From an uncultured virus (IMG/VR IMGVR_UViG_3300031867_000012) (lineage: Duplodnaviria; Heunggongvirae; Uroviricota; Caudoviricetes): 64,000 nucleotides of DNA. Numbering within the stretch: position 1 is the stretch's first letter; every line of letters starts with the position of its first letter. The position numbers and the translations under genes were made by a program. This document shows positions 4,490 through 62,399 of this stretch, piece by piece. A model generated the notes under the pieces. That model searched no databases, was not told where the DNA came from, and saw only the letters and a list, made by a program, of their open reading frames with translations. Where the stretch lies: the IMG/VR virus record IMGVR_UViG_3300031867_000012; one strand, 5' to 3'.

Positions 4490-4843
4490 ATGAAATATGT
4501 AGATTTAAATGATTTACAATTAGCGTCATATAATGAACTAATTAGGTTAGAATTCTTAGAAAATAAAAGTAAAGAAGAATTAACTAAACATGAAAAAGAA
4601 TTGATTAGTGATAAGATATATGAAAGACTTGGTGATACATATTTATCGGAAGTATTAACATATGATGAAAATACTGGTAAAATGAAAGGCATATCATTTA
4701 ATTTTACTGAAGTAAATGCATTTAAAGAATTGATATTATTATTTGCATTATGTTATGTAAATGATATGAATTTTAATGAATATTTTAATTTAAAAATACG
4801 AGATAGAATGGATGAAATTAATAAATATAAATCAGATATCTAA
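4490..4843 (+). CDS. hypothetical protein
   Basis: 117-aa ORF. Confidence 0.7.
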   Translation: MKYVDLNDLQLASYNELIRLEFLENKSKEELTKHEKELISDKIYERLGDTYLSEVLTYDENTGKMKGISFNFTEVNAFKELILLFALCYVNDMNFNEYFNLKIRDRMDEINKYKSDI

Positions 4844-6375: not shown

Positions 6376-6852
6376 ATGCATAACAATACAAAAATAACAC
6401 CGTTATCAAAATTTCCTACAGAAGTTATTCTTCATTTTTATCGTAAGAATAGACATTGCTTAACTAACTATAGAGCATTTGTTAAAAGATATAATTGGAA
6501 TACTAAAAAGAAAGAATTTTGGATTCCTTTTTATGGACCATTTGAAAAAGATGGCTATAAAGTAAACCATATGATAATTGGCTATACAAAATCTACTGGG
6601 GAGGAATGTCATAAATTGTTTACAAAAATTATGAGTAAACAAGATGCTCACTGGGATGAGGATGGATATTATTATGGATATAGTGAATGGCAATATGGAG
6701 ATGAAATGAATTTTAGATTTGAAGGAATGTATTGGGAAGGTACAATCAAACAAATCAAAGATGAATTAGATAAACGTGAGCATGTAGGTATCTTTAATAA
6801 TAAAGATTATCGAAAGTGGTTGATTAATTATAGAAAAAATAAGAAGAACTAA
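6376..6852 (+). CDS. hypothetical protein
   Basis: 158-aa ORF directly after a promoter. Confidence 0.7.
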   Translation: MHNNTKITPLSKFPTEVILHFYRKNRHCLTNYRAFVKRYNWNTKKKEFWIPFYGPFEKDGYKVNHMIIGYTKSTGEECHKLFTKIMSKQDAHWDEDGYYYGYSEWQYGDEMNFRFEGMYWEGTIKQIKDELDKREHVGIFNNKDYRKWLINYRKNKKN

Positions 6853-32025: not shown

Positions 32026-35000
32026 ATGTTTAAGATAGATGAAAATTTGTTTGGGTATATCAGTAAAAGTAATGAATTAACTGAAGATATTATCCAAAGG
32101 TATAAAAATAGTTTAATATTTATTGGAGATGAAAGACAAATATATATTCCAACAACTAATTCTTATGTAGGTGTTGGAATGTCAACAATAGAAAATATTC
32201 ATATTTCTAATTCGAGTTCCGATAGAATATATATTTCTGATGTTGCTAATAGTAGTGCAACAAATCCTAACACAACATATTATTTTCCTGTTATTAGTAA
32301 TGTGGCACCTCATTCATATTACTATACATATGTAGCGCAAAATGTTGGTGTTAATCCTATTACTGGAAAATTTATTGGTGGATTACAAGGTACTGCGGAT
32401 TATTCAACAGTATCTAATTTAACATATAAGAATGAAACTAAATCTACTAGTAATAATTCATCATATTATATAACATTTGCTAATAAAATGAATGGTGAAT
32501 CATATTCATATGTTAATAACAAATTATTATATAATCCACATAAAGAAATATTAACAAGTACATATTTTAGTGGATATTTACTTGGTTGGGCTTCTTATGC
32601 TTCTTATACCATATATTCATCATATTCATCATATACATCATATTCATTATTTAATAGTTATCAAAGTATTCATAATACTAATGATAATAATATTTATCAT
32701 ATTACATTTGGTAAGAATTCTTCTTATAGTTTAAGTTATGTTAATAGTCAATTCTATTATAATCCTGCATTAAATTGTGTATATTTTGGTACTGCTTATG
32801 GTAATATTTATGGTAATGCTGAGACTCTTGATGGATTTAATGCTAATGAATTATTTCAAGAATTTAAAAATGCAGGTAGCCAATATACATATATAAGAAT
32901 TGGTAATACTGATAAAAAATTAAAGATTGATGCTGATAAATTAGATGGTAAACATTTAAATGAAATATTCCAAGAATTTAGAAATGGTGATAATAATTGT
33001 GCATATATTAAAATAGGTAATACTGAAAAATATGTACAACTAAATTCTTATACTTTAGAAGGTTTAAAGAAAGAAGATCTATTTACATTTTTTGGTAATG
33101 ATAATGAGCAAACCAAAATTATAATTGGTGGTACAACTAAAACACATTATATCAATTCTGCTTATCTACAAGGTTATCATGTATCCGAGTTGTTAGAATT
33201 ATTTAGTGATGGTACAATATCTTCTTCTGGTAACATATTAACACAAAAAGCACATAAGATTAAGATTGGTGGAACAGAAAAATCTGCCGGTCAATCAAAT
33301 AATGTTAAGATAATAAATTCAGCTGAATGGTCATATGTTGGCTCAACTCCATGCATATCTAATACTACATATAATTTAGTTTTAAGATATAAAGTAAATG
33401 GAATAAATTCAACTTATGCTTATTTACCTAAACTTTATGCTTATAGTGCAACTTATATTGATGGACTTAGCACTAAAGATCTATTTACATTTTTTGGTAA
33501 TGATAATGAGCAAACCAAAATTATAATTGGTGGTACAACTAAAACACATTATATCAATTCTGCTTATCTACAAGGTTATCATGCATCTGAGTTGTTAGAA
33601 TTATTTAGTGATGGTACAATATCTTCTTCTGGTAACATATTAACACAAAAAGCACATAAGATTAAGATTGGTGGAACAGAAAAATCTGCTGGTCAATCAA
33701 ATAATGTTAAGATAATAAATTCAGCTGAATGGTCATATGTTGGTTCAACTCCATGCATATCTAATACTACATATAATTTAGTTTTAAGATATAAAATAAA
33801 TGGAATAAATTCAACTTATGCTTATTTACCTAAACTTTATGCTTATAGTGCAACTTATATTGATGGACTTAGCACTAAAGATCTATTTACATTTTTTGGT
33901 AATGATAATGAGCAAACCAAAATTATAATTGGTGGTACAACTAAAACACATTATATCAATTCTGCTTATCTACAAGGTTATCATGCATCTGAGTTGTTAG
34001 AATTATTTAGTGATGGTACAATATCTTCTTCTGGTAACATATTAACACAAAAAGCACATAAGATTAAGATTGGTGGAACAGAAAAATCTGCTGGTCAATC
34101 AAATAATGTTAAGATAATAAATTCAGCTGAATGGTCATATGTTGGTTCAACTCCATGCATATCTAATACTACATATAATTTAGTTTTAAGATATAAAATA
34201 AATGGAATAAATTCAACTTATGCTTATTTACCTAAACTTTATGCTTATAGTGCAACAATAGCAGATAAATTAGGTACATCTACGGTGGGTGAACCATTAA
34301 TACCAATTTATTTAAATAATGGTATACCAACTGCATTTACAAATAATGTTGGTAATGGTGCTAAACCTATATATTTATATGCAGGTAAAATTACAGCTAG
34401 TACTGCTAATATTGGTAGTGGAACAAAACCTATATTTATGTCTAGTGGTACTTTAACCGAATCATCTAGTACAGTAGGTTCTTCTTCACAACCAGTATAT
34501 TTAAATGCCGGTGTTATAACTGCTTGTACTAATGTAGCTAATTCATCACATACTCATAAAATTAAATTAGGTAATACAGAAATAACAATACCAGCCCCAG
34601 GTACAACACCAACGGCTACAACAAATATATCTGGGCCTTTTGCAATTGATACTAATGCTGATAGTTCAAAAGCTTTCTCAATTAGAAGAAGTTCTGATGC
34701 AGAAGGTGTTAAACATTGGGTTGATGATGCTGAATATCATATTGATTACACAAATGACGAAAAATCTAGTTCAATACATTGGAGAATAATTAATACTGAT
34801 ACAGAATCCCCAGCTTCTCCACCACAAACAACTGATTTTCATGTATATTTGACTTCTAATGGAGAATTTAGACCAGGTACAAATAATACTGGTAGTATAG
34901 GTACATCTTCATATAAATGGAAATATATTTATGGAACAAATATATATGGTAATTTAACAGGAAATGTTACTGGTAATGTTACTGGTAATTTGACTGGTAT

Positions 35001-38000
35001 TGCTGATTGGGCTAAATTATTAAGACCTATTTCAAATACAACAACTGCATCGGCTTCTACGTGGAATATTCCTTCTGGGTGTAAACAAGTATGGGGTGAA
35101 AGATTTACTGATAGTACTTTACAATATACTCCTTCTGGTGGATCTGCAACTACTATAACAGATAGTGGTGATTGGGTTATATGGTTAGCCCCAAGTGCAA
35201 CATCTAATGTAGCCACTTTAAATATGCGTATAGATGGTACATTCTATGGTTCATTTGCAGGTAATTTGACAGGTAATGCAAGTACAGCTACTAAATTAGG
35301 TACATCAACAATAGGTAGTACTACTAAAGGTATTTATCTTGATGGTGGTACACCTAAAGCAATGACATATGAATTAAAAGCTACTGTTAATAGTGGTACA
35401 TCAGGTAAGTTAGCTTATTATAGTGGAGATACTGCTATAAGTGTATATAATAGTTCTGTTGGTAATAGTGCTAAACCTATTTACATGTATGCTGGTATTC
35501 CAACAGCTAGTACTGCTAATATTGGTAGTGGAACTAAACCTATATTTATGTCTAGTGGTACTTTAACAGAATCATCTAGTACAGTAGGTAGTGGAACTAA
35601 ACCTATATTTATGTCTAGTGGTACTTTAACTGCATTTAGTGCTACTATAGGTTCTTCATCACAACCAGTATATTTGAATGCCGGTGTTATAACTGCTTGT
35701 TCTAGTATGGCTTTATCTGGTCATACACATACATTTGCGCAAATTACCAATAAAATTACTGATGGAGATGAATTTAATTTTGTAGATGCAGAAAAAGCTG
35801 CTATATGGTTTAATTATCGTAGAGCTTCAACTTCCGCAGCTACAACACCTACTACACAATTCAATTTTGGACAAGGTACAGCAACAGAAGCATATGCTAA
35901 TATAAAAGCACAAGGTTTTATTAAAAATGGATCATCTAATAATTACTTATTAAGAGGTGGTGGAGGACATATTGCTTTTGGTAACTCAAATGGTAATATA
36001 CCAATATCTAATGGTACTGTAAATACTAATTTGAATGCAGATTTATTAGATGGTTATCATGCAAGTAATTTATATACTTCAATTGGGGACTGGATAAGTA
36101 AGGTAGGTAATACAAAAACAGTAACTGTAGGAGGTGATTCAAATACATATTACCCAGTTGTAATAAGTTCTACTTCTGATAAAACTTCTATAAATATTAT
36201 ATCTATTTGGAAAAATCTAGGAAGTCCTACAGCATCTTATTCAGGTAATCATTCTAATGGAACTTCATCAATGTGGTTAATATTTGAAGGAAGATCATGT
36301 ACTTGGGATGGTAATGGAGGTTATTATAGAACTATTTATAAATCACAACCATATGCAACATTAATATCTGAAGCTAATATAGTAGATAGTTCAGTTAGTG
36401 TACTATGTGTATATTTAAGAGGAGGAGGTACTGAATATAATATAAGTACTACTTATCCAGCTTCTGTTACAGTTTATTTATCTGCAACTAATATTGGATC
36501 AAGTACTTATCCAGCAAATGTTATACCAAGAACAGATATAGGTAATGGCGGTATCATAAATGGAACATTTTATGGTAATATTACTGGTAATGCAAATACC
36601 GCTAATACAGCTACTAAATTAGGTACATCAACAATAGGTAGTACAACTAAAGGTATTTATCTTGATGGTGGTACACCTAAAGCAATGACATATGAATTAA
36701 AAGCTACTGTTAATGCTGGTAAATCAGGTAAGTTAGCTTATTATAGTGGAGATGCTACTATAAGTGTATATAATAGTTCTGTTGGTAATGGTGCAAAACC
36801 TATTTATATGTATGCTGGTGTTCCAACAGCTAGTACTGCTAATATTGGTAGTGGAACTAAACCTATATTTATGTCTAGTGGTACTTTAACAGAATCATCT
36901 AGTACAGTGGGTAGTGGAACTAAACCTATATTTATGTCTAGTGGTACTTTAACTGCATTTAGCGCTACTATAGGTTCTTCGTCACAACCAGTATATTTAA
37001 ATGCCGGAGTTATAACTGCTTGTTCTAGTATGGCTTTATCTGGTCATACACATACATTTGCACAAATTACCAATAAATTAACTCATGGGGCTGAATTTAA
37101 TTTTGTAGATCAAGAAAAGGCTACAGTATGGTTTAATTATCGCCGTGCTTCTGATTCTGCAGCAACAACACCTACTACACAATTCAATTTCGGTCAAGGT
37201 ACAGCATCAGAAACATATGCTAATATAAAAGCACAAGGTTTTATAAAAAATGGATCATCTGATAATTACTTATTGAGAGGTGCTGGAGGACATATTGCTT
37301 GGGGTAATGGGTCTAGCCAAATTCCATATTCAAATGGTACAGTAAATACTAATTTGAATGCAGATTTATTAGATGGGTATCATGCTCTTGGTATAACTAA
37401 TACTTCAAATTATTTGATTAAACAAAGCTATATTAATCCAGGAGCTGATGAAAATAATGATCATTGGTATAGAATTGCAACTATTAAACCTGTAGGAAGT
37501 AGTAATTATAAAGTATTATTATATATTTCTACAAATTATCCTAATAGACAATCTGCTTTAGTTGAAATTACTTATAGAACTAACAGCGGTGTTGAATATC
37601 ATGAAGTAACAGGATATGTTGGTACTATTCCAGCAGCTAATATAAGATTATATTATGATACAACAAATTATTCTACAGTATCAGCTGAATTATGTATTTT
37701 TATAGCAAAAAGCTCAACTGGTAGTAGAACAGTTAATACAAGAGTTATAGCAGAAGTTCAACGTGGTGTACAATTCCCAAATATTATAACATTAGATAAT
37801 AATGTTTTAATTGAAGCATCATTGTCATCATATACAGCAATGACTTATGCTAATTTCTTAGGTAATGCAAGTACAGCTACTAAATTAGGTACATCAACAA
37901 TAGGTAGTACAACTAAAGGTATTTATCTCGATGGTGGTACACCTAAAGCAATGACATATGAATTAAAAGCTACTGTTAATGCTGGTACATCAGGTAAGTT

Positions 38001-41000
38001 AGCTTATTATAGTGGAGATACTGCTATAAGTGTATATAATAGTTCTGTTGGTAATGGTGCTAAACCTATTTATATGTATGCTGGTGTTCCAACCGCTAGT
38101 ACTACTAATATTGGTAGTGGAACTAAACCTATATTTATGTCTAGTGGTACTTTAACAGAATCATCTAGTACAGTGGGTAGTGGAACAAAACCTATATTTA
38201 TGTCTAGTGGTACTTTAACTGCATTTAGCGCTACTATAGGTTCTTCTTCACAACCAGTATATTTAAATGCTGGTGTTATAACAGCTTGTACTAATGTAGC
38301 TAATTCTTCACATACTCATACATTTGCACAAATTACTAATAAATTAACCCATGGAGATGAATTTAATTTTGTAGATCAAGAAAAAGTTACAGTATGGTTT
38401 AATTATCGTCGTGCTTCTGATTCTGCAGCAACAACACCTACTACACAATTCAATTTCGGTCAAGGTACAGCAACAGGAACTTATGCTTATTTAATGGCTG
38501 AAGGATTCAAAAAGAATGGATCATCTGATAATTACTTATTAAGAGGTGGTGGAGGACATATTGCCTGGGGTAATGGTTCTGGTCAAATTCCATATTCAAA
38601 TGGTACAGTAAATACTAATTTGAATGCAGATTTATTAGATGGGTATCATGCTGGTGTACAAAATGGGCAGGTTAGTATATTTGTTCCATGGCCTAGTATA
38701 GCTACCATGAAATCAGAAGGTTTATTGACAACTAATTATGGTACAAGTGGATATGGTCATCCGGATGAAGTATATTTACAAGCTATATGTAAATGGGCAA
38801 TTGCACATTATACAAATTTAGGTGATGTTACATTAATTGGTTCAATCGCTCCTAACTCATCAGGTACTGTTATAATGCATTTATATTCTTCATCTGGTAA
38901 AGATTCAACAACATTATTACCTAGATATTGTGCTTCTACATACCAAAATTTAAGTGGTTATATATATGAATTTGGTTGTGTGAATTATGTTTGGTATTAT
39001 AGAAGACTTTCTGCCGGTAATGCAGATATTGCAACTAGATTAGGTACATCAACAATAGGTAGTACAACTAAAGGTATTTATCTTGATGGTGGTACACCTA
39101 AAGCGATGACATATGAATTAAAAGCTACTGTTAATAGTGGTACATCAGGTAAGTTAGCTTATTATAGTGGAGATGCTGCTATAAGTGTATATAATAGTTC
39201 TGTTGGTAATGGTGCTAAACCTATTTATATGTATGCTGGTGTTCCAACAGCTAGTACTGCTAATATTGGTAGTGGAACTAAACCTATATTTATGTCTAGT
39301 GGTACTTTAACAGAATCATCTAGTACAGTGGGTAGTGGAACAAAACCTATATTTATGTCCAGTGGTACTTTAACTGCATTTAGCGCTACTATAGGTTCTT
39401 CATCACAACCGGTATATTTAAATGCTGGTGTTATAACAGCTTGTACTAATGTAGCTAATTCTTCACATACTCATACATTTGCACAAATTACTACTAAAAT
39501 TACAAATACAAATGAATTTAATTTTGTAGATGCAGAACAAGCTACTATATGGTTTAATTATCGTAGAGCTTCTAATTCTGCCGCTACAACTGCTACTACA
39601 CAATTCAATTTCGGACGAGGTACTGCAACAGAAGCATATGCTAATATAAAAGCACAAGGTTTTATTAAAAATGGATCATCTGATAATTACTTATTAAGAG
39701 GTGGTGGAGGACATATTGCTTATGGTAATTCAAGTGGATATGTACCTTTATCTAATGGTACTATAAATACCAATTTGAATGCAGATTTATTAGATGGTAC
39801 CCATAAAGCAGATTTATTAACTGCTGCATCTTTAGGAGCTAGTGGAAATAATACAACTTTATCTGTAACTGTTGGTGGAACAACTAAGACAGGAAGTGTT
39901 ACTGTACCTTATTCTACTAAGACAAAAACTGTTATTGCACACCATACAATAACAGGTTCAGGTCCTAATAATGCCCAAGGTAAATGGATTAAGTTTGCCA
40001 CAATTGATTTATCATCTGGTAACTGGACCTCATTTGATGAAACATGGATATTTGGATCTACAGAAAGCCCATCTGCTACACCAAGAGGTATATTAAAACT
40101 TAATGGTAATAGAGCAGGTAATAACGATACGATAAGTGCTGTATCACTTAAATGGTTAACATTAGAGAATATTTGGTATAAAGATAAAGTTGTATTATAT
40201 AAAAGAGCAGCTAATACATATGATGTATATATATCTAACTATGGTACATATGAAACAATGAATGTAGTTAGATTAACTGGTTATTATGATAATGTAACAT
40301 TTGGTAATGGTACATGGGGTGATTTACCAGGTACAGCATTATATACATCATCTTTAGGTGGTAATGTTAGTAATGCTGATTATGCAAGTAATGCTGATAA
40401 ATTAGATGGTTATCATGCTAATGGTTTATTTACTGTATTTGGTGCATCAGGTAATGCGTTATCATTAACAATTGGTGGAACAACACGTACATATACTCCA
40501 CCTTATGCAAGTAATGCAGATACTGTTGATGGTTATCACGCTAGTGGTTTATTTACTACATTTGGGAATTCAGGAAATAATATAACAGCAACTATAGGTA
40601 GTACTACTAAAACATTTACTGTTAATTACGCTACTAATTCTACTTCAACAGAATATCTTAATAATTATACTATTTCAGATCCTAATACAGCAAAAAAAGA
40701 TAATAAAGTAAAATGGTTTGCACAAATTAATTCATCATCAGGATATGCAGGTAATAATTATGGATTCCCAGTATCTAATAATGCAAATGGTATACTTTAT
40801 TTAGGAACACATCCAGGAGAATATGGACACCAATTAGGGTTTTCATCAAATGGTAGTATTTATCGTAGATACCAAAATGGTTCAGCTTTCCCAACAACTG
40901 CTAATGGAGGTTCATGGTTAAGAATATTAGATAGTGGAAACTCATCAGTATCAGGAGGAGGATCTTCTTTTGGTAGTTCTATTACTGTTACTATAAATGG

Positions 41001-42288
41001 TATAACTAAAACATTAACTATTCCTTCAAATCCAAATACTGATTATAGAGTAACACAAAATTCAGATAGTGCTAATACCGAATATAGAGTATTATTTAAG
41101 TATACTGCTAATGATACTAATGAAACAAATACAGTAAAATATAATACTAAATTTAGATATAATCCTTCAACAGGTAATATATTTAATAATGGTAATTTCT
41201 ATATAGACACAGGAGATAATGATAGATTTATACAATTTAGATATAATTCAAATAATTATGCTGGTGCTGCATGGAGATTAATTTCTAGAGGATCCGGAAG
41301 TGGAGATACTAATTATTTTGATATTGAGACAGGTGGAAGTGATGCAAGTTCTAATACATGGTATAGAGTAATCCGTCTTACAATGGATAATCGTAGAGTT
41401 GGTATAGGAACTGATTCACCATCTGATAAATTAGATGTTGGTGGTTATATAAGAAGTAGTGCTAATTCTAGATATTTACAAATAGGTCCACAAAATACAT
41501 CATGGGCTCATTATAATACAAATGCAGATACAGGACATTGGTTTAATAAACGTGTAGATGTTAATGGAGATATCCGACTTCATAGTGGAAATGGTCATCT
41601 TCTTTCAACAGGTCAAATGTATGCTAAAGGTTATCATTTTATAGGTAATGATAATAATAATTATGTATTATTAGCCGGTGGAAGTTATAAACAATGGACA
41701 AATAATAGTACTGCAAATGCTTTAGTTTCAAGAAATGGAAGTGGAGATATATATGTACGTTATGCATTTGCTACACTTTTCAATTCTAGTACAGGTGATG
41801 AAAATCCTACAATAGGTTCAGTTTATATCAGAAACACATCTGATAACTATATAAGAAGAATGAGTATTAGTAATTTCATTTCACAAATTACTCCATTAGT
41901 AGATTCTAATGATACTGTTTCATTTACAAAATCATTAACTGTTACAGAAGCTTGGATGGACACCGGAATTGTTGTTAATACTACCAATTTCCCTAAAGGA
42001 TCTGGTACATATGCAATTCAAATTTCACATAGTACTTTAACTACTCCTGGTGATAATGGATATGCTTCATTATATTCTGGAATAATATCTATTTATACTG
42101 ATGGAACAAATTCAACTACCGATAGTGAAGAAGTAATATTACATAGAGCAGGTCATGCATGGGTACGAAGAATATATATTAGAACAATGCCTGTTGCTTC
42201 TACTGGTAATTGTAAGATACAAATAGCTGCAAGTAAAACATGGACAGCCGCTTCAAATGTAACATTCAAATTTAGAAAACTTATTTAA
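32026..42288 (+). CDS. giant modular tail fibre / receptor-binding protein
   Basis: 3420 aa, Ser/Thr/Gly/Asn-rich, with GNLTGNA shaft motifs, repeated NADxLDGxHA motifs, VGIGTDSP motif and large internal repeats. Confidence 0.8.
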   Translation: MFKIDENLFGYISKSNELTEDIIQRYKNSLIFIGDERQIYIPTTNSYVGVGMSTIENIHISNSSSDRIYISDVANSSATNPNTTYYFPVISNVAPHSYYYTYVAQNVGVNPITGKFIGGLQGTADYSTVSNLTYKNETKSTSNNSSYYITFANKMNGESYSYVNNKLLYNPHKEILTSTYFSGYLLGWASYASYTIYSSYSSYTSYSLFNSYQSIHNTNDNNIYHITFGKNSSYSLSYVNSQFYYNPALNCVYFGTAYGNIYGNAETLDGFNANELFQEFKNAGSQYTYIRIGNTDKKLKIDADKLDGKHLNEIFQEFRNGDNNCAYIKIGNTEKYVQLNSYTLEGLKKEDLFTFFGNDNEQTKIIIGGTTKTHYINSAYLQGYHVSELLELFSDGTISSSGNILTQKAHKIKIGGTEKSAGQSNNVKIINSAEWSYVGSTPCISNTTYNLVLRYKVNGINSTYAYLPKLYAYSATYIDGLSTKDLFTFFGNDNEQTKIIIGGTTKTHYINSAYLQGYHASELLELFSDGTISSSGNILTQKAHKIKIGGTEKSAGQSNNVKIINSAEWSYVGSTPCISNTTYNLVLRYKINGINSTYAYLPKLYAYSATYIDGLSTKDLFTFFGNDNEQTKIIIGGTTKTHYINSAYLQGYHASELLELFSDGTISSSGNILTQKAHKIKIGGTEKSAGQSNNVKIINSAEWSYVGSTPCISNTTYNLVLRYKINGINSTYAYLPKLYAYSATIADKLGTSTVGEPLIPIYLNNGIPTAFTNNVGNGAKPIYLYAGKITASTANIGSGTKPIFMSSGTLTESSSTVGSSSQPVYLNAGVITACTNVANSSHTHKIKLGNTEITIPAPGTTPTATTNISGPFAIDTNADSSKAFSIRRSSDAEGVKHWVDDAEYHIDYTNDEKSSSIHWRIINTDTESPASPPQTTDFHVYLTSNGEFRPGTNNTGSIGTSSYKWKYIYGTNIYGNLTGNVTGNVTGNLTGIADWAKLLRPISNTTTASASTWNIPSGCKQVWGERFTDSTLQYTPSGGSATTITDSGDWVIWLAPSATSNVATLNMRIDGTFYGSFAGNLTGNASTATKLGTSTIGSTTKGIYLDGGTPKAMTYELKATVNSGTSGKLAYYSGDTAISVYNSSVGNSAKPIYMYAGIPTASTANIGSGTKPIFMSSGTLTESSSTVGSGTKPIFMSSGTLTAFSATIGSSSQPVYLNAGVITACSSMALSGHTHTFAQITNKITDGDEFNFVDAEKAAIWFNYRRASTSAATTPTTQFNFGQGTATEAYANIKAQGFIKNGSSNNYLLRGGGGHIAFGNSNGNIPISNGTVNTNLNADLLDGYHASNLYTSIGDWISKVGNTKTVTVGGDSNTYYPVVISSTSDKTSINIISIWKNLGSPTASYSGNHSNGTSSMWLIFEGRSCTWDGNGGYYRTIYKSQPYATLISEANIVDSSVSVLCVYLRGGGTEYNISTTYPASVTVYLSATNIGSSTYPANVIPRTDIGNGGIINGTFYGNITGNANTANTATKLGTSTIGSTTKGIYLDGGTPKAMTYELKATVNAGKSGKLAYYSGDATISVYNSSVGNGAKPIYMYAGVPTASTANIGSGTKPIFMSSGTLTESSSTVGSGTKPIFMSSGTLTAFSATIGSSSQPVYLNAGVITACSSMALSGHTHTFAQITNKLTHGAEFNFVDQEKATVWFNYRRASDSAATTPTTQFNFGQGTASETYANIKAQGFIKNGSSDNYLLRGAGGHIAWGNGSSQIPYSNGTVNTNLNADLLDGYHALGITNTSNYLIKQSYINPGADENNDHWYRIATIKPVGSSNYKVLLYISTNYPNRQSALVEITYRTNSGVEYHEVTGYVGTIPAANIRLYYDTTNYSTVSAELCIFIAKSSTGSRTVNTRVIAEVQRGVQFPNIITLDNNVLIEASLSSYTAMTYANFLGNASTATKLGTSTIGSTTKGIYLDGGTPKAMTYELKATVNAGTSGKLAYYSGDTAISVYNSSVGNGAKPIYMYAGVPTASTTNIGSGTKPIFMSSGTLTESSSTVGSGTKPIFMSSGTLTAFSATIGSSSQPVYLNAGVITACTNVANSSHTHTFAQITNKLTHGDEFNFVDQEKVTVWFNYRRASDSAATTPTTQFNFGQGTATGTYAYLMAEGFKKNGSSDNYLLRGGGGHIAWGNGSGQIPYSNGTVNTNLNADLLDGYHAGVQNGQVSIFVPWPSIATMKSEGLLTTNYGTSGYGHPDEVYLQAICKWAIAHYTNLGDVTLIGSIAPNSSGTVIMHLYSSSGKDSTTLLPRYCASTYQNLSGYIYEFGCVNYVWYYRRLSAGNADIATRLGTSTIGSTTKGIYLDGGTPKAMTYELKATVNSGTSGKLAYYSGDAAISVYNSSVGNGAKPIYMYAGVPTASTANIGSGTKPIFMSSGTLTESSSTVGSGTKPIFMSSGTLTAFSATIGSSSQPVYLNAGVITACTNVANSSHTHTFAQITTKITNTNEFNFVDAEQATIWFNYRRASNSAATTATTQFNFGRGTATEAYANIKAQGFIKNGSSDNYLLRGGGGHIAYGNSSGYVPLSNGTINTNLNADLLDGTHKADLLTAASLGASGNNTTLSVTVGGTTKTGSVTVPYSTKTKTVIAHHTITGSGPNNAQGKWIKFATIDLSSGNWTSFDETWIFGSTESPSATPRGILKLNGNRAGNNDTISAVSLKWLTLENIWYKDKVVLYKRAANTYDVYISNYGTYETMNVVRLTGYYDNVTFGNGTWGDLPGTALYTSSLGGNVSNADYASNADKLDGYHANGLFTVFGASGNALSLTIGGTTRTYTPPYASNADTVDGYHASGLFTTFGNSGNNITATIGSTTKTFTVNYATNSTSTEYLNNYTISDPNTAKKDNKVKWFAQINSSSGYAGNNYGFPVSNNANGILYLGTHPGEYGHQLGFSSNGSIYRRYQNGSAFPTTANGGSWLRILDSGNSSVSGGGSSFGSSITVTINGITKTLTIPSNPNTDYRVTQNSDSANTEYRVLFKYTANDTNETNTVKYNTKFRYNPSTGNIFNNGNFYIDTGDNDRFIQFRYNSNNYAGAAWRLISRGSGSGDTNYFDIETGGSDASSNTWYRVIRLTMDNRRVGIGTDSPSDKLDVGGYIRSSANSRYLQIGPQNTSWAHYNTNADTGHWFNKRVDVNGDIRLHSGNGHLLSTGQMYAKGYHFIGNDNNNYVLLAGGSYKQWTNNSTANALVSRNGSGDIYVRYAFATLFNSSTGDENPTIGSVYIRNTSDNYIRRMSISNFISQITPLVDSNDTVSFTKSLTVTEAWMDTGIVVNTTNFPKGSGTYAIQISHSTLTTPGDNGYASLYSGIISIYTDGTNSTTDSEEVILHRAGHAWVRRIYIRTMPVASTGNCKIQIAASKTWTAASNVTFKFRKLI
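33076..34256 (+). repeat. three near-identical 402-nt (134-aa) tandem repeats
   Basis: GATCTATTTACATTTTTTGGT starts at 33076, 33478 and 33880. Confidence 0.95.
35283..39797 (+). repeat. four dispersed copies of a ~0.78-kb module (LGTSTIGSTTKG...NLNADLLDG)
   Basis: Copies at about 35283-36062, 36606-37385, 37872-38651 and 39040-39797, each followed by a unique segment. Confidence 0.9.
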
Positions 42289-57800: not shown

Positions 57801-57834
57801 AATGAGACTTCTAAAATAAATTAGAAATCTCATT
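57801..57834 (-). terminator. terminator ending the tRNA array
   Basis: AATGAGATTTCTAA/TTAGAAGTCTCATT plus T run on the minus strand. Confidence 0.65.
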
Positions 57835-57937: not shown

Positions 57938-58016
57938 TGGATGCAATAGGATTCGAACCTATGTTTATTTCTTTTATAAAAAAAGACTATACCCAAAGTA
58001 TACCTTACACGCATCC
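57938..58016 (-). tRNA. non-canonical tRNA-like RNA with TTA at the anticodon position
   Basis: GGATGCG/TGCATCC acceptor, ATAGG-TTCGAAT-CCTAT T arm, TCTTT-TT TTA TA-AAAGA arm, aberrant D region. Confidence 0.6.
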
Positions 58017-58028
58017 ATTAAAAAATAA

Positions 58029-58170
58029 AACTAAAGAATATTTATAAACAGCTAAATTTATAATAAAACATTTCAAGTGTTTCGCGTATACCATTTCGCC
58101 ATTCGGGGAACATCCCCAAATCTGGAATCGAACCAGAATATCGATGAAACTGTTTATATGACTATTAGTT
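58029..58170 (-). ncRNA. circularly permuted tRNA-like RNA (UGA anticodon) enclosed by a conserved stem module
   Basis: 5'->3' order: T arm, acceptor 3' strand TTTGGGGA, TGTT linker, CCCCGAA, D arm GCG-AAATGGTATA-CGC, AAACA-CT TGA AA-TGTTT; flanks pair with each other. Confidence 0.8.
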
Positions 58171-58213
58171 TTTTACCATTTGATAATTTTATATTATCAA
58201 TAAAATTATTTAG

Positions 58214-58353
58214 TGGCCGAGGCTGGACTTGAACCAACAATCTTTAATTTCCAAATAATTAACGTGTTTACCTTCGAAGTACCTCTACATCATGACTACG
58301 TTTTAACGAGGAAGTAGACGAGAGCTAATTTCTTTTAATTTCACTACTCGGCC
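58214..58353 (-). tRNA. tRNA with TTG (Gln) anticodon and a ~63-nt insertion in the D-loop
   Basis: GGCCGAG/CTCGGCC acceptor, GTG-AAATT[insert]GGTAAA-CAC, TAATT-AT TTG GA-AATTA, GTTGG-TTCAAGT-CCAGC. Confidence 0.75.
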
Positions 58354-58361
58354 AAATTTAA

Positions 58362-58802
58362 TTACTTAATATTTTCTTTTTCAAAAATATACTTAATAAC
58401 TGAATCCCAATTTGGGAATTTATTTGAATGAATCTGAATATGTTCTCCAGTAAAATTACCAGCTCCATTCTTTATAGAATCATCAATCAAATAATCACCA
58501 ATATTAAGATCTTTATGGTGGCTAAAAATAACATTCTTATATGCATTAGGCAAATATCTCTTAACCCATACAAGTTTTTCCATCAAAGCATTAGGATTAC
58601 TCCAAGGAGAAGTTGAAAGAATATAAACATCAAAATATTTCTCCAATTCATTATAAGATTCAATAGCACCTTCCATAGGTTTCAAATCTCTAAAAAATCC
58701 AATAATGTGTTTTGCATCTTTTGGGTCAACATTAAGTTCTTTAGCAGCACCCAAATAATCGGACATTGTATTGTCCAAATCAATATAAATTATTTTCTTC
58801 AT
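58362..58802 (-). CDS. 5'(3')-deoxyribonucleotidase (NT5C, HAD)
   Basis: YIDLDNT, FFRDLKPMEGA, EKLVW, GDYLIDD. Confidence 0.88.
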   Translation of the reverse strand: MKKIIYIDLDNTMSDYLGAAKELNVDPKDAKHIIGFFRDLKPMEGAIESYNELEKYFDVYILSTSPWSNPNALMEKLVWVKRYLPNAYKNVIFSHHKDLNIGDYLIDDSIKNGAGNFTGEHIQIHSNKFPNWDSVIKYIFEKENIK

Positions 58803-58810
58803 ACAAATAT

Positions 58811-58838
58811 AATATAGTAAATTGAATTAAAAATTCAA
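58811..58838 (-). promoter_or_regulatory. putative phage promoter
   Basis: TTGAAT-N16-TATATT. Confidence 0.7.
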
Positions 58839-58911: not shown

Positions 58912-60009
58912 TTATTTAATAAATTCTAAAAATTTATCTATTTTTTCTTTCATTTTTAAAGAACCTTGTTTAGAATTAATTTCATTCCAATCGATTCTAT
59001 AAACTTCAATTCCATTTTCTTTTATATATTGATCTCTTATAATATCCTTTTCTTTACGATCTTTATATTTATGTTGTTTACCATCAATTTCAAGATCAAT
59101 TTTTCTATTATTAATTTCAATATAAAAATCTAAAAAATATCTTTCACCTTTACCTAAATTACCATATTCAAATACTTTTTCTCTAATATAAGGTATATTA
59201 TTATTATCTAAAACTTGTTTCCAAAATTTTTCAGCATAACTTGTAATATTTCTGGATTTCCATCCTTGAAATCTACCTTCTTTAATTACTTTATTTATAG
59301 ATTCTTTTGATTTTATTGATATAAGTTTTTTATGACATTCATCACAACAAGTAGTACCTCCACCAACTTTACCAGATTTAATTATTCTTGCATAAAATTC
59401 TTTATTACAAATAGCACAATTATGTTTATGCAAATGAATAATATTAATTAATTCATCTTTATAATCATAATTATCTAAATTTAAAATTTTACCAGCATTA
59501 ATTAATTCAGAAATTAATTTATAATTTTTTTTATTAAAATAATTTAATTTTTCTTCTTCTGATAAATATTTAGATTTAGATATATATTGTTCTTTATTTT
59601 TTCCTGTATATTGGTTATGTGGAATATATGTACCATTTTTTAAAGATTTATATATTCCTTGTGAAATTTTTTCTTTTGTTTCTTGAGAATGTACTCTTGA
59701 ATGAGCACATTTACTTGAGCAACATTTAGGATATAAACCTTTATTAAATTGATTATCCGTTAAATCCAATATATATTCTTTTCCACATTTTTTACAAATC
59801 AATTTTCTAAGTTTTTTAGATTTTTCATCAATTTTATTTAATTGTTTAGATTTATCAATACGATTTTTTGTAGCTCTTTCTGAAGCTAATTTTTGTATTG
59901 ATTTATCTCTTTCTTCATTATAATTTGGATTTAATTTACAATGACTCATATGACCCATTAATCCAAATTGATTATTAAATTCCTTTCCACAATATTTACA
60001 ACAACACAT
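58912..60009 (-). CDS. free-standing homing-endonuclease-like protein (zinc fingers, NUMOD3, DUF559/Vsr-like nuclease)
   Basis: CKYC...H...HC, HSQETKEKIS, SYAEK...YFLDFY...EIDGKQH...RD...YRI. Confidence 0.8.
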   Translation of the reverse strand: MCCCKYCGKEFNNQFGLMGHMSHCKLNPNYNEERDKSIQKLASERATKNRIDKSKQLNKIDEKSKKLRKLICKKCGKEYILDLTDNQFNKGLYPKCCSSKCAHSRVHSQETKEKISQGIYKSLKNGTYIPHNQYTGKNKEQYISKSKYLSEEEKLNYFNKKNYKLISELINAGKILNLDNYDYKDELINIIHLHKHNCAICNKEFYARIIKSGKVGGGTTCCDECHKKLISIKSKESINKVIKEGRFQGWKSRNITSYAEKFWKQVLDNNNIPYIREKVFEYGNLGKGERYFLDFYIEINNRKIDLEIDGKQHKYKDRKEKDIIRDQYIKENGIEVYRIDWNEINSKQGSLKMKEKIDKFLEFIK

Positions 60010-60161: not shown

Positions 60162-60257
60162 TATTTCAAAGAAAATGTTAATACTAAAAATCTTAAATGT
60201 TAAAAAATCCTTATTTATCAAAATTATCGAAGTAAGTATTAACTGACTATTGAAATA
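60162..60257 (-). ncRNA. free-standing copy of the conserved stem module
   Basis: TATTTCAA-TAGTCA-GTTAATACT-TACTTCGA...AGTATTAAC-ATTTTCT-TTGAAATA. Confidence 0.7.
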
Positions 60258-60403: not shown

Positions 60404-60408
60404 GTAAT

Positions 60409-60591
60409 ATCTCTTAATTCTAACCAATTGAATAATGCTTGTGCACCGGCACTAATCAATGTTTATGGTCCTACTTAAATTGAATAATGTTGCCAGCACA
60501 TGGTCATTATCCTAATTTGTTTCAGCTTGATGAGATCCTTGGTTTAATTGGTAACGATAACTTCCAATCATCAAGTCATTGAATAAGAGAT
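60409..60591 (-). ncRNA. unknown ~183-nt multi-stem RNA
   Basis: Closing stem ATCTCTTA/TAAGAGAT; internal CTTGATGA/TCATCAAG, GGATAATG/CATTATTC, TGTGC-TGGCA/TGCCG-GCACA. Confidence 0.5.
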
Positions 60592-60702
60592 CAATTTGCA
60601 TAGTTATTTTTGTTTTACTAAGTGACGTACGATCTTAATAAAATCTAAATGTAACACTACATTTACGGATCAAACTATTGCATAAACTACGTATCGTATT
60701 TG

Positions 60703-60873: not shown

Positions 60874-60942
60874 TCAGGGATGATTGAGTTAAACAACCGT
60901 CTCATAGTAAAATCCATGGCTCTATCGTTGAGCTAATCCCTG
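60874..60942 (-). tRNA. degenerate tRNA with 6-nt anticodon loop ATTTTA
   Basis: CAGGGAT/ATCCCTG and GCTC/GAGC stems intact; D-loop GG and T-loop TTC are mutated. Confidence 0.6.
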
Positions 60943-60945
60943 AAT

Positions 60946-61094
60946 ACACATGGCTCTTTCGGAGTTTTTGGGCTTCTAATCCTTCAAGTTGCTCCTCAAA
61001 CTAAAGGTATCACAGACCATGTACTTATGATACGAGACTTACGATTCTCCCTAAACCCGTAGCCTTAGGCTCTTTCGATTTGTAAACATGTATA
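60946..61094 (-). ncRNA. unknown structured intergenic RNA
   Basis: Relatively GC-rich, no ORF, duplicated CGAAAGAGCC, pairings TACATG/CATGTG and GTATCA/TGATAC. Confidence 0.4.
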
Positions 61095-61112
61095 CCTATT
61101 TACAACTATAGG

Positions 61113-62286: not shown

Positions 62287-62393
62287 TGGTGATATATTGG
62301 ATTCGAACCAACGTGGGATATCTTAGTTTCCTTAGATCCGAAAAAACTTAGTACTGTGTCTAGCCTCTGTACAATTGCCTTAATATACTCCCA
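62287..62393 (-). ncRNA. highly divergent tRNA-like element
   Basis: TTGG-TTCGAAT-CCAA T arm, imperfect acceptor, TAAGG after the acceptor as in 57938-58016. Confidence 0.45.
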
Positions 62394-62399
62394 TGATAA

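What the first reader, a model, noticed from the sequence alone, without database searches (positions are those of the whole stretch)
58214..58353. tRNA(UUG) with a short structured D-loop intron-like insert
Seen: a complete cloverleaf is restored by removing about 63 nt (58273-58336) between GUGAAAUU and GGUAAACAC, and GAAAUU recurs just inside the insert. Established: bacterial tRNA introns are usually group I/II introns of hundreds of nucleotides, while short D-loop introns are archaeal (BHB). This insert is too small for either self-splicing class and carries the shared module. The acceptor (G1-C72, A73) is not a typical bacterial Gln body, so the amino-acid identity is uncertain.
Basis: partly seen in the sequence, partly recalled or inferred. 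Interest (0 to 1): 0.8.

Follow-up and report, generated by a model that had tools for sequence, protein, structure and literature searches.

The report
Inside-out Y-RNA-like tRNA mimic
The supposed intron in this phage tRNA gene is most likely not cut out: it is a conserved folded module, found on many small RNAs beside a Ro60-like ring protein gene, and here it is grafted into the side loop of a tRNA body whose amino-acid end stays free, the reverse of the known Y RNA layout.

Summary
The cloverleaf with a 64-nt D-loop insert is real (minus strand, 58353-58214). The intron reading is not supported. The insert is a conserved two-helix module (motifs TAGTCA and TACTTCG) that occurs twice more in the window and, in related large phages, sits on tRNA bodies at several positions or on no tRNA. 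I found 13 D-loop-type RNAs in 9 records. In the 7 closest, all helices covary but the anticodon loops all differ. No insert-less copy, shared splice boundary, BHB motif or Rfam intron match was found. All 8 related records first reached without reference to the protein encode a Ro60-like protein, and 24 of 32 viral Ro60-like loci carry the module. Best reading (0.68): an unspliced, Ro60-bound tRNA mimic working like YrlA Y RNAs but wired inside-out, with a free acceptor end. Weak points: binding is untested, and no Ro60-like gene lies in this 64-kb window. Earlier notes of this scan described such a 'handle' family on other DNA and led me to the Ro60 test; none I saw described the D-loop-grafted form.

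The parts
58214..58353 (-). tRNA-shaped RNA gene with a handle module in its D loop (140 nt)
58347..58353 (-). acceptor stem, 5' strand
   Evidence: 7/7 pairs, 6 of 7 pairs change on both sides in homologues
58337..58344 (-). D stem 5' strand and positions 13-17 (A14, A15)
58273..58336 (-). 64-nt insert = A-rich linker plus handle module
58317..58324 (-). handle stem A, 5' strand (pairs with 58283-58291, one bulge)
   Evidence: helix 3: 91.9% paired, 6 of 9 pairs change on both sides
58299..58312 (-). pyrimidine tract, conserved CT pair strand and short capped stem B
   Evidence: helix 4
58293..58298 (-). motif 1, TAGTCA (bulged U, two pairs, internal loop); candidate Ro60 contact strand
   Evidence: invariant in 7 of 7; role inferred
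58283..58291 (-). handle stem A, 3' strand
58275..58281 (-). motif 2, TACTTCG
58264..58272 (-). G18-G19 and D stem 3' strand
58244..58262 (-). anticodon arm: 5-bp stem with 9-nt loop, or 6-bp stem with 7-nt loop (A32, UUG)
58222..58238 (-). T arm
58214..58221 (-). acceptor 3' strand and discriminator A73; CCA not encoded, as in the six ordinary tRNAs of the window
58028..58171 (-). second handle RNA: handle forms the ends and carries a circularly permuted tRNA body (T arm, loop-closed acceptor, D arm, anticodon arm), YrlA-like order
60164..60256 (-). third handle RNA with an AT-rich cargo and no tRNA body
58362..58802 (-). NT5C-family nucleotidase gene directly upstream, probably same transcript
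   Evidence: co-transcription inferred
58811..58838 (-). promoter-like site, member of a repeat family of the window
   Evidence: 16 promoter-like sites found against 9.5 expected: weak
57801..57834 (-). terminator-like hairpin closing the cluster after tRNA-Gly

Best explanation
The gene makes an unspliced ~140-nt non-coding RNA with two modules: a tRNA body and a protein-binding 'handle' (word taken from earlier scan notes). Shown here: the fold, the conservation of the handle, its reuse in many wirings, and its linkage to a Ro60-like gene in relatives. Inferred: (1) the RNA is cut from a polycistronic transcript by the enzymes that mature tRNAs (RNase P, 3' trimming, CCA addition), since its ends look like those of neighbouring tRNAs; (2) a phage Ro60-like ring binds the TAGTCA strand of the handle as Ro60 binds the conserved strand of Y RNA; (3) the tRNA body keeps its elbow (G18G19, T loop, A15:U48) and is displayed on the ring to engage tRNA-binding factors, most plausibly as tether or bait in tRNA damage and repair during infection; (4) it does not decode, because the anticodon loop drifts in length and sequence. 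It works like YrlA but is turned inside-out: the acceptor stem forms the ends and the handle is closed by a loop.
For: Handle helix is sequence-variable but self-matched: own partner strand is the best of 28 regions in 25 of 28 terminal-handle RNAs, mean -14.2 against -6.8 kcal/mol. Of 105 motif hits in fetched loci, 85 have the handle at the RNA ends (25 of them without a T arm), 10 inside a tRNA, 10 unsure. Strict motif counts per record: 7, 6, 3, 2, 6, 2, 1, 6 against 0-1 for the reversed pattern, and 0 in Lak-C1. 13 D-loop-type RNAs in 9 records. Joined bodies of the 7 closest get 7 different ARAGORN calls: Gln, Leu, His, undetermined, Asp, Arg, Pro. In 5 of 13 the G of the invariant TCG is itself the first G of the D-loop GG, so one splice boundary cannot serve all. 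Ro60-like gene in 8 of 8 records G001-G008, none in Lak-C1; nearest handle 31-1042 nt from the gene in 5 of the 8 Ro60-centred loci measured, 2.6-7.7 kb in 3. Reverse test: widened motif in 24 of 32 viral Ro60-like loci, 86 sense hits against 13 antisense and 8 and 6 reversed. The protein has Pfam TROVE and vWA_Ro60 hits, best PDB profile hits phiLo Ro60 (E 1e-22), vertebrate Ro60 and Rsr, and the listed Foldseek ranks 1-13 are all Ro60. Its invariant H198 aligns with human H187, a residue whose mutant lacks Y RNA binding (PMC11277228, one passage). No YrlA was found by Rfam in 6 such loci, so these RNAs fill that slot.
Against: No Ro60-like gene in the 64-kb window and no genome is held, so the partner is unproven for this phage. 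Binding was not testable. The YrlA motif GNCGAAN0-1G is absent (0 of 36). The widened motif was chosen after seeing hits in these loci, and both Ro60 genes and handles lie in tRNA clusters of related phages, so linkage is partly confounded. 8 of 32 viral Ro60-like loci lack the motif in the DNA held (one at 62% identity), and the strict motif is in only 1 of 70 prokaryote-genome loci. For the 6 closest homologues, 17-41 of 42 trial excisions give an ARAGORN tRNA, and several loops look authentic (Leu GAG with G37, Arg CCU, Asp GUC with G73), which a pure scaffold would not need. The Ro60 model is of modest quality (pLDDT 64).
Confidence: 0.68

Rival explanations
1. The handle is a small intron removed by an undescribed protein route (endonuclease plus phage RNA ligase, perhaps with the Ro60-like ring as platform); terminal-handle genes would then be permuted forms yielding circular or two-piece tRNAs.
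For: Excision restores a callable tRNA in the window and 6 close homologues. All 7 have the insert at the same place, after 14-16 and before G18. The window encodes an RNA ligase and a HAD repair-type protein. Lak phages have unexplained short tRNA introns, one with intron-less alleles, and Table S6 lists one D-loop insert as 'possible intron?' in another large phage.
Against: No insert-less copy in 315 records, 2.19 Mb. No joint skipping 58273-58336 listed in 2 RNA and 2 DNA runs, and one RNA contig spans both junctions (contigs only, weak). Nucleotides between TCG and GG vary from 0 to 3 and G004 lacks U at the 5' junction. No BHB in the window RNA. 5 of 6 distant homologues give no tRNA at default threshold under any of 42 excisions. 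Many handles carry no tRNA.
Confidence: 0.12
2. An unspliced but working tRNA: the handle is a tolerated D-loop extension, and the RNA is charged and decodes, possibly protected by Ro60.
For: Perfect acceptor and T arms in 7 of 7, free 3' end like ordinary tRNAs, several authentic-looking loops.
Against: 3 of 7 loops can be read only as 8-9 nt or with A32; loop length varies among close strains; orthologues at the same body differ in anticodon (window against G001a; G001b against G005). From my knowledge of identity rules (recalled), G1-C72/A73 does not fit bacterial Gln, nor A73 His. A 64-nt domain at the elbow should hinder the ribosome (inference).
Confidence: 0.08
3. In this particular phage the RNA is an orphan: the Ro60-like gene is lost and the copy is drifting or works as a free tRNA decoy.
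For: No Ro60-like gene in the window; the window copy has the 9-nt loop, a weak stem B and a C in the pyrimidine tract where relatives have T; motif 2 of the neighbour at 58164 is a less common variant.
Against: All stems of the window copy pair; three handle RNAs are kept in the window; the contig continues past 64000 (an overlapping window is noted) where the rest of the tRNA cluster may lie; variant contigs show acceptor changes on both strands.
Confidence: 0.08
4. The module is a small self-cleaving or self-ligating ribozyme that processes the tRNA cluster.
For: Invariant single-stranded motifs around an internal loop, always in tRNA clusters; theta ribozymes show that gut phages place ribozymes beside tRNAs (PMC10879173, search listing only).
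Against: No ribozyme or intron family in Rfam at E up to 10; the HDV-like TCCTCG seen in the window is not conserved; motif 1 varies at two positions in distant members; tight linkage to a Ro60-like gene is unexplained.
Confidence: 0.04

Closest known systems
YrlA-type bacterial and phage Y RNAs with Ro60/Rsr (Rfam RF02553; Chen et al. 2014, PMC4201824: passages and section 6 read; Wang et al. 2018, 10.1101/312249: passages read)
   Same: Two modules, a bulged stem plus a tRNA-like domain with conserved T and D loops and Levitt pair; encoded near a Ro60 gene (in relatives); a YUAY-like motif follows the stem in 24 of 36 handles. The neighbour at 58028-58171 has the YrlA order of arms.
   Different: [quoted passage not shown] Here the acceptor stem forms the ends, the handle is internal in the D loop, and an anticodon arm is kept. 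The motif is TAGTCA, not GNCGAAN0-1G; no Rfam match.
Yrl1/Yrl2 and Ro60 of Thermus phage phiLo (Hu et al. 2025, PMC12135203: passages read)
   Same: Phage-encoded Ro60 with stem-bulge-stem RNAs; phiLo Ro60 is the best PDB match of the linked protein; the window RNA has CGAA after motif 2.
   Different: No tRNA body described for Yrl1/2 in the passages read; CGAA is in only 11 of 36 handles (CGAT in 14).
'Enigmatic' tRNA introns of Lak megaphages (Devoto et al. 2019, 10.1101/356790 passages; PMC6784885 Table S6 read)
   Same: Related phage group (RNA ligase 55-59% identical); short conserved inserts in tRNA genes with no known removal route.
   Different: Lak inserts listed lie in the anticodon loop, and one has intron-less alleles; Lak-C1 has neither the handle motif nor the Ro60-like gene.
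Archaeal non-canonical D-loop tRNA introns (BHB; recalled)
   Same: Position and size.
   Different: No BHB at the junctions of the window RNA; bacterial virus.

Membership tests
YrlA / Y RNA | Encoded near a Ro60 gene | tested here: inconclusive
   Met in 8 of 8 related records; not in the 64-kb window; rest of genome not held.
YrlA / Y RNA | Ro-binding stem formed by pairing of 5' and 3' ends | tested here: not met
   Internal in this RNA; terminal in 85 of 105 family hits.
YrlA / Y RNA | GNCGAAN0-1G motif near the 5' end | tested here: not met
   0 of 36 handles.
YrlA / Y RNA | YUAY after the stem; CGAA in the bulge | tested here: inconclusive
   YUAY 24 of 36 (window copy has a purine first); CGAA 11 of 36, present in the window copy.
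YrlA / Y RNA | tRNA-like elbow: T loop, D-loop GG, Levitt pair | tested here: met
   T stem 5/5 and A15:U48 in 7 of 7; lost in the distant G003 and G007 copies.
YrlA / Y RNA | No free acceptor end | tested here: not met
   Free acceptor with discriminator base.
YrlA / Y RNA | Match to Rfam RF02553 | tested here: not met
   window; 6 Ro60-like loci: 107 matches, all tRNA.
YrlA / Y RNA | Binds Ro60 | not testable with these tools
   The complex tool takes no RNA partner.
Group I / group II intron | Catalytic core (Rfam match), conserved 5' U and terminal G, or group II ends | tested here: not met
   No intron family at E up to 10; 5' U absent in G004; removing through the TCG would delete G18 in 5 of 13.
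Archaeal BHB tRNA intron | Bulge-helix-bulge at the junctions | tested here: not met
   None in window, G001a, G002a; candidates in the other 4 leave no proper D loop.
Lak 'enigmatic' introns | Anticodon-loop position; insert-less alleles | tested here: not met
   D-loop position; 0 junction-spanning hits in 2.19 Mb.
HDV-like / theta ribozyme | Nested double pseudoknot | tested here: inconclusive
   No Rfam hit and the loop-like hexamer is not conserved; no dedicated descriptor search was run.
tRNA-Gln(UUG) | Canonical 7-nt loop, conserved anticodon | tested here: not met
   A32 or 9-nt loop; orthologue in G001 reads GAG.

The most novel reading that the evidence does not exclude
These phages keep a modular kit of Ro60-tethered tRNA mimics, and the inside-out form is a Y-RNA-like molecule that is matured like a tRNA, receives CCA and can be aminoacylated while held on the ring, displaying fast-changing anticodon loops as baits for host anticodon nucleases next to the phage's RNA repair enzymes.
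Probability: 0.25. Interest if true: 0.85.

Novelty: new variant of a known kind. Interest (0 to 1): 0.62.

Why it matters
[quoted passage not shown] A natural series in which one handle is attached at the acceptor, variable loop, anticodon stem or D loop, with ends either at the handle or at the acceptor, makes that question testable: what stays constant (elbow, handle) and what is free (anticodon, wiring). It also shows that some 'short introns' in phage tRNA genes may be protein-binding modules, and that tRNA scanners miss or misname these genes. My 10 literature searches (open-access library only) listed no paper on this form; the supplement of the viral structured-RNA catalogue PMC10690425 was not examined and could hold the motif.

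Tried and rejected
Exact-motif scans from the window copy found nothing real: 55 chance matches, 0, 19 chance matches in metagenomes. blastn against GenBank phages gave only short or tRNA-arm hits. Of 78 stretches from the degenerate motif scan I kept 13 by eye for their tRNA context and dropped 65 without testing a partner strand. Three doubtful motif hits were dropped before the counts. The distance bins mislabel sites (its 'terminal D-loop' rows are acceptor-joined, two 'internal AC-arm' rows are D-loop type); only its terminal/internal totals are used. Model R1 scores ordinary tRNAs up to 53 bits, so the five weakest D-loop-type hits (43-59 bits) were accepted on inspection. A trans-spliced group I 3' fragment was considered because TAGTC resembles a recalled P7 strand; rejected since the motif varies to TAGCAA/TAGTAA in relatives and junctions are not conserved. 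Hammerhead, hairpin, twister, pistol and IS200/IS605-end resemblances were compared from recall only and not pursued. Depth in RNA runs was not used: contigs cannot give levels. A single-sequence PDB search with the Ro60-like protein found nothing; the profile did. The review PMC6047535 is not held. PMC7824862 (passages) only notes that a small subset of jumbo phages has TROVE proteins.

Full report
Setting. The window is 26% G+C and reads in the standard code. Its RNA ligase is 55-59% identical to those of Lak phages, and most runs holding the stretch are labelled bovine gut metagenome. I infer a large phage of Bacteroidales. No genome is held. The finding lies in a minus-strand cluster: nucleotidase gene, the RNA in question, a permuted tRNA-like gene, another tRNA-like gene, tRNA-Gly, terminator.

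Observation. The 140-nt gene has complete acceptor and T arms, a 3-bp D stem and a 64-nt insert between position 17 and G18. Standard scanners miss it. The UUG reading depends on register, and related contigs have loops 1-2 nt shorter.

Finding relatives. The neighbouring nucleotidase led to a 410-kb record, G001, which holds an orthologue at 80% identity with the insert kept and a different anticodon loop. Comparing them exposed the module: TAGTCA, about 10 variable bases, TACTTCG. A degenerate scan and record-wide searches found it 1-7 times in each of 8 records, on one strand per record, against 0-1 for the reversed pattern and 0 in Lak-C1.

What the module is. The variable bases pair with a partner strand, and a second stem lies beyond a conserved internal loop with a bulged U. 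In 25 of 28 cases a handle's own partner is its best match. Usually the handle forms the two ends of the RNA (85 of 105 hits) and carries a tRNA body joined at the acceptor, variable loop or anticodon stem, or no T arm at all (25). In a minority it is grafted into an intact tRNA and capped by a loop. One Phe-like body occurs both ways: handle inside with free acceptor in G002, and handle outside with the acceptor halves linked in other phages. So the position of the ends is interchangeable while both modules are kept, as expected of a two-domain RNA.

The D-loop form. Seven close members (window, G001 twice, G002 twice, G004, G005) keep every helix by compensatory change: 95.5% of cells paired, 23 of 32 pairs changed on both sides, 0 of 500 shuffles as high (related sequences and a structure drawn on them favour this). 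A model built on them found six more in G003, G007, G011 (three in tandem) and G012. Joined bodies of the seven are named Gln, Leu, His, undetermined, Asp, Arg and Pro. No insert-less body was found in 315 records. The gap between TCG and the D-loop GG varies, and in 5 of 13 the G of TCG is G18. There is no BHB in the window RNA and no Rfam intron or ribozyme match. In two RNA runs no joint skipping the insert is listed and one contig spans both junctions, which is weak because these are contigs. Against my reading: the six closest homologues give tRNA calls for 17-41 of 42 trial excisions, and some loops look authentic; but five of six distant ones give none.

The partner. Earlier scan notes naming YrlA prompted a TROVE search. 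Ro60-like genes lie in all 8 records G001-G008, seven of which were reached by the RNA motif and one by the nucleotidase. In five of eight loci measured the nearest handle is within about 1 kb. From the protein side, the strict motif was in 9 of 32 viral loci and 1 of 70 prokaryote-genome loci; a widened motif, chosen after seeing distant members, was in 24 of 32 viral loci with 86 sense hits against 13, 8 and 6 in controls. Pfam, a PDB profile search and Foldseek identify the protein as Ro60, with the histidine equivalent to human H187 invariant. Rfam finds no YrlA in six of these loci. The window itself has no such gene.

Mechanism. Shown: fold, conservation, modular reuse, linkage in relatives. 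Inferred: tRNA-like processing, Ro60 binding through the TAGTCA strand, display of a tRNA elbow and a drifting anticodon loop, no decoding. The window also encodes an RNA ligase, a HAD repair-type protein and a tRNA thiouridylase, which fits a role in tRNA damage and repair, as proposed for YrlA in the passages read. The target of the tRNA body is not known.

Comparison. It works like YrlA (Chen 2014; Wang 2018; Hu 2025) but is not a member: the 5' motif, the terminal Ro-binding stem and the sealed acceptor are all unmet. It differs from Lak introns in position and in lacking insert-less alleles. Earlier notes of this scan describe a handle family on other DNA; I could not see their sequences, so identity with this family is likely, not shown.

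Verdict. Real feature, intron reading disfavoured, new variant of Y-RNA-like tRNA mimics. Confidence 0.68, interest 0.62.

Noticed in passing
window 58028-58171 (-): Handle RNA with a circularly permuted tRNA body, acceptor closed by a short loop, anticodon arm kept (UGA here, UGU in the G001 orthologue).
   Followed up: partly
window 57938-58016 (-): tRNA-like gene with an extra hairpin in the D arm and a U-rich anticodon loop; contigs of three of four runs lack 4 nt there; Rfam 27.6 bits. No handle motif.
   Followed up: no
window 62288-62395 (-): Another tRNA-like element with a perfect T arm and an enlarged middle part, missed by ARAGORN.
   Followed up: no
window 60874-60942 (-): tRNA-like gene with a degenerate T loop, found by Rfam (36.8 bits) but not ARAGORN; a similar gene lies in G001 (L056 about 4698-4768).
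   Followed up: no
window 60404-60701 and 60945-61110 (-): Structured non-coding spacers without Rfam match; the second resembles a stretch of G001 near 6408.
   Followed up: no
window 58912-60009 (-): 365-aa ORF with cysteine pairs and a C-terminal DUF559 nuclease-like domain inside the tRNA cluster, like a homing endonuclease.
   Followed up: no
L177 1432-1572 (G002); L214 11682-11849 (G004): Handle grafted into the anticodon stem or arm of an intact tRNA body, a second inside-out wiring.
   Followed up: partly
L316 1204-1622 (G011): Three D-loop-type RNAs in tandem with weak D stems.
   Followed up: partly
L089 (G001): Several tRNAs with 190-390-nt introns called by ARAGORN; the Arg(TCT) one looks like a group I intron by eye.
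   Followed up: no
L247 2702: A handle RNA beside a Ro60-like gene on a contig binned as Anaeroplasmataceae; perhaps a mis-binned phage contig.
   Followed up: no
window 32026-42288 (+): 3420-aa repeat-rich ORF, probably a tail fibre.
   Followed up: no
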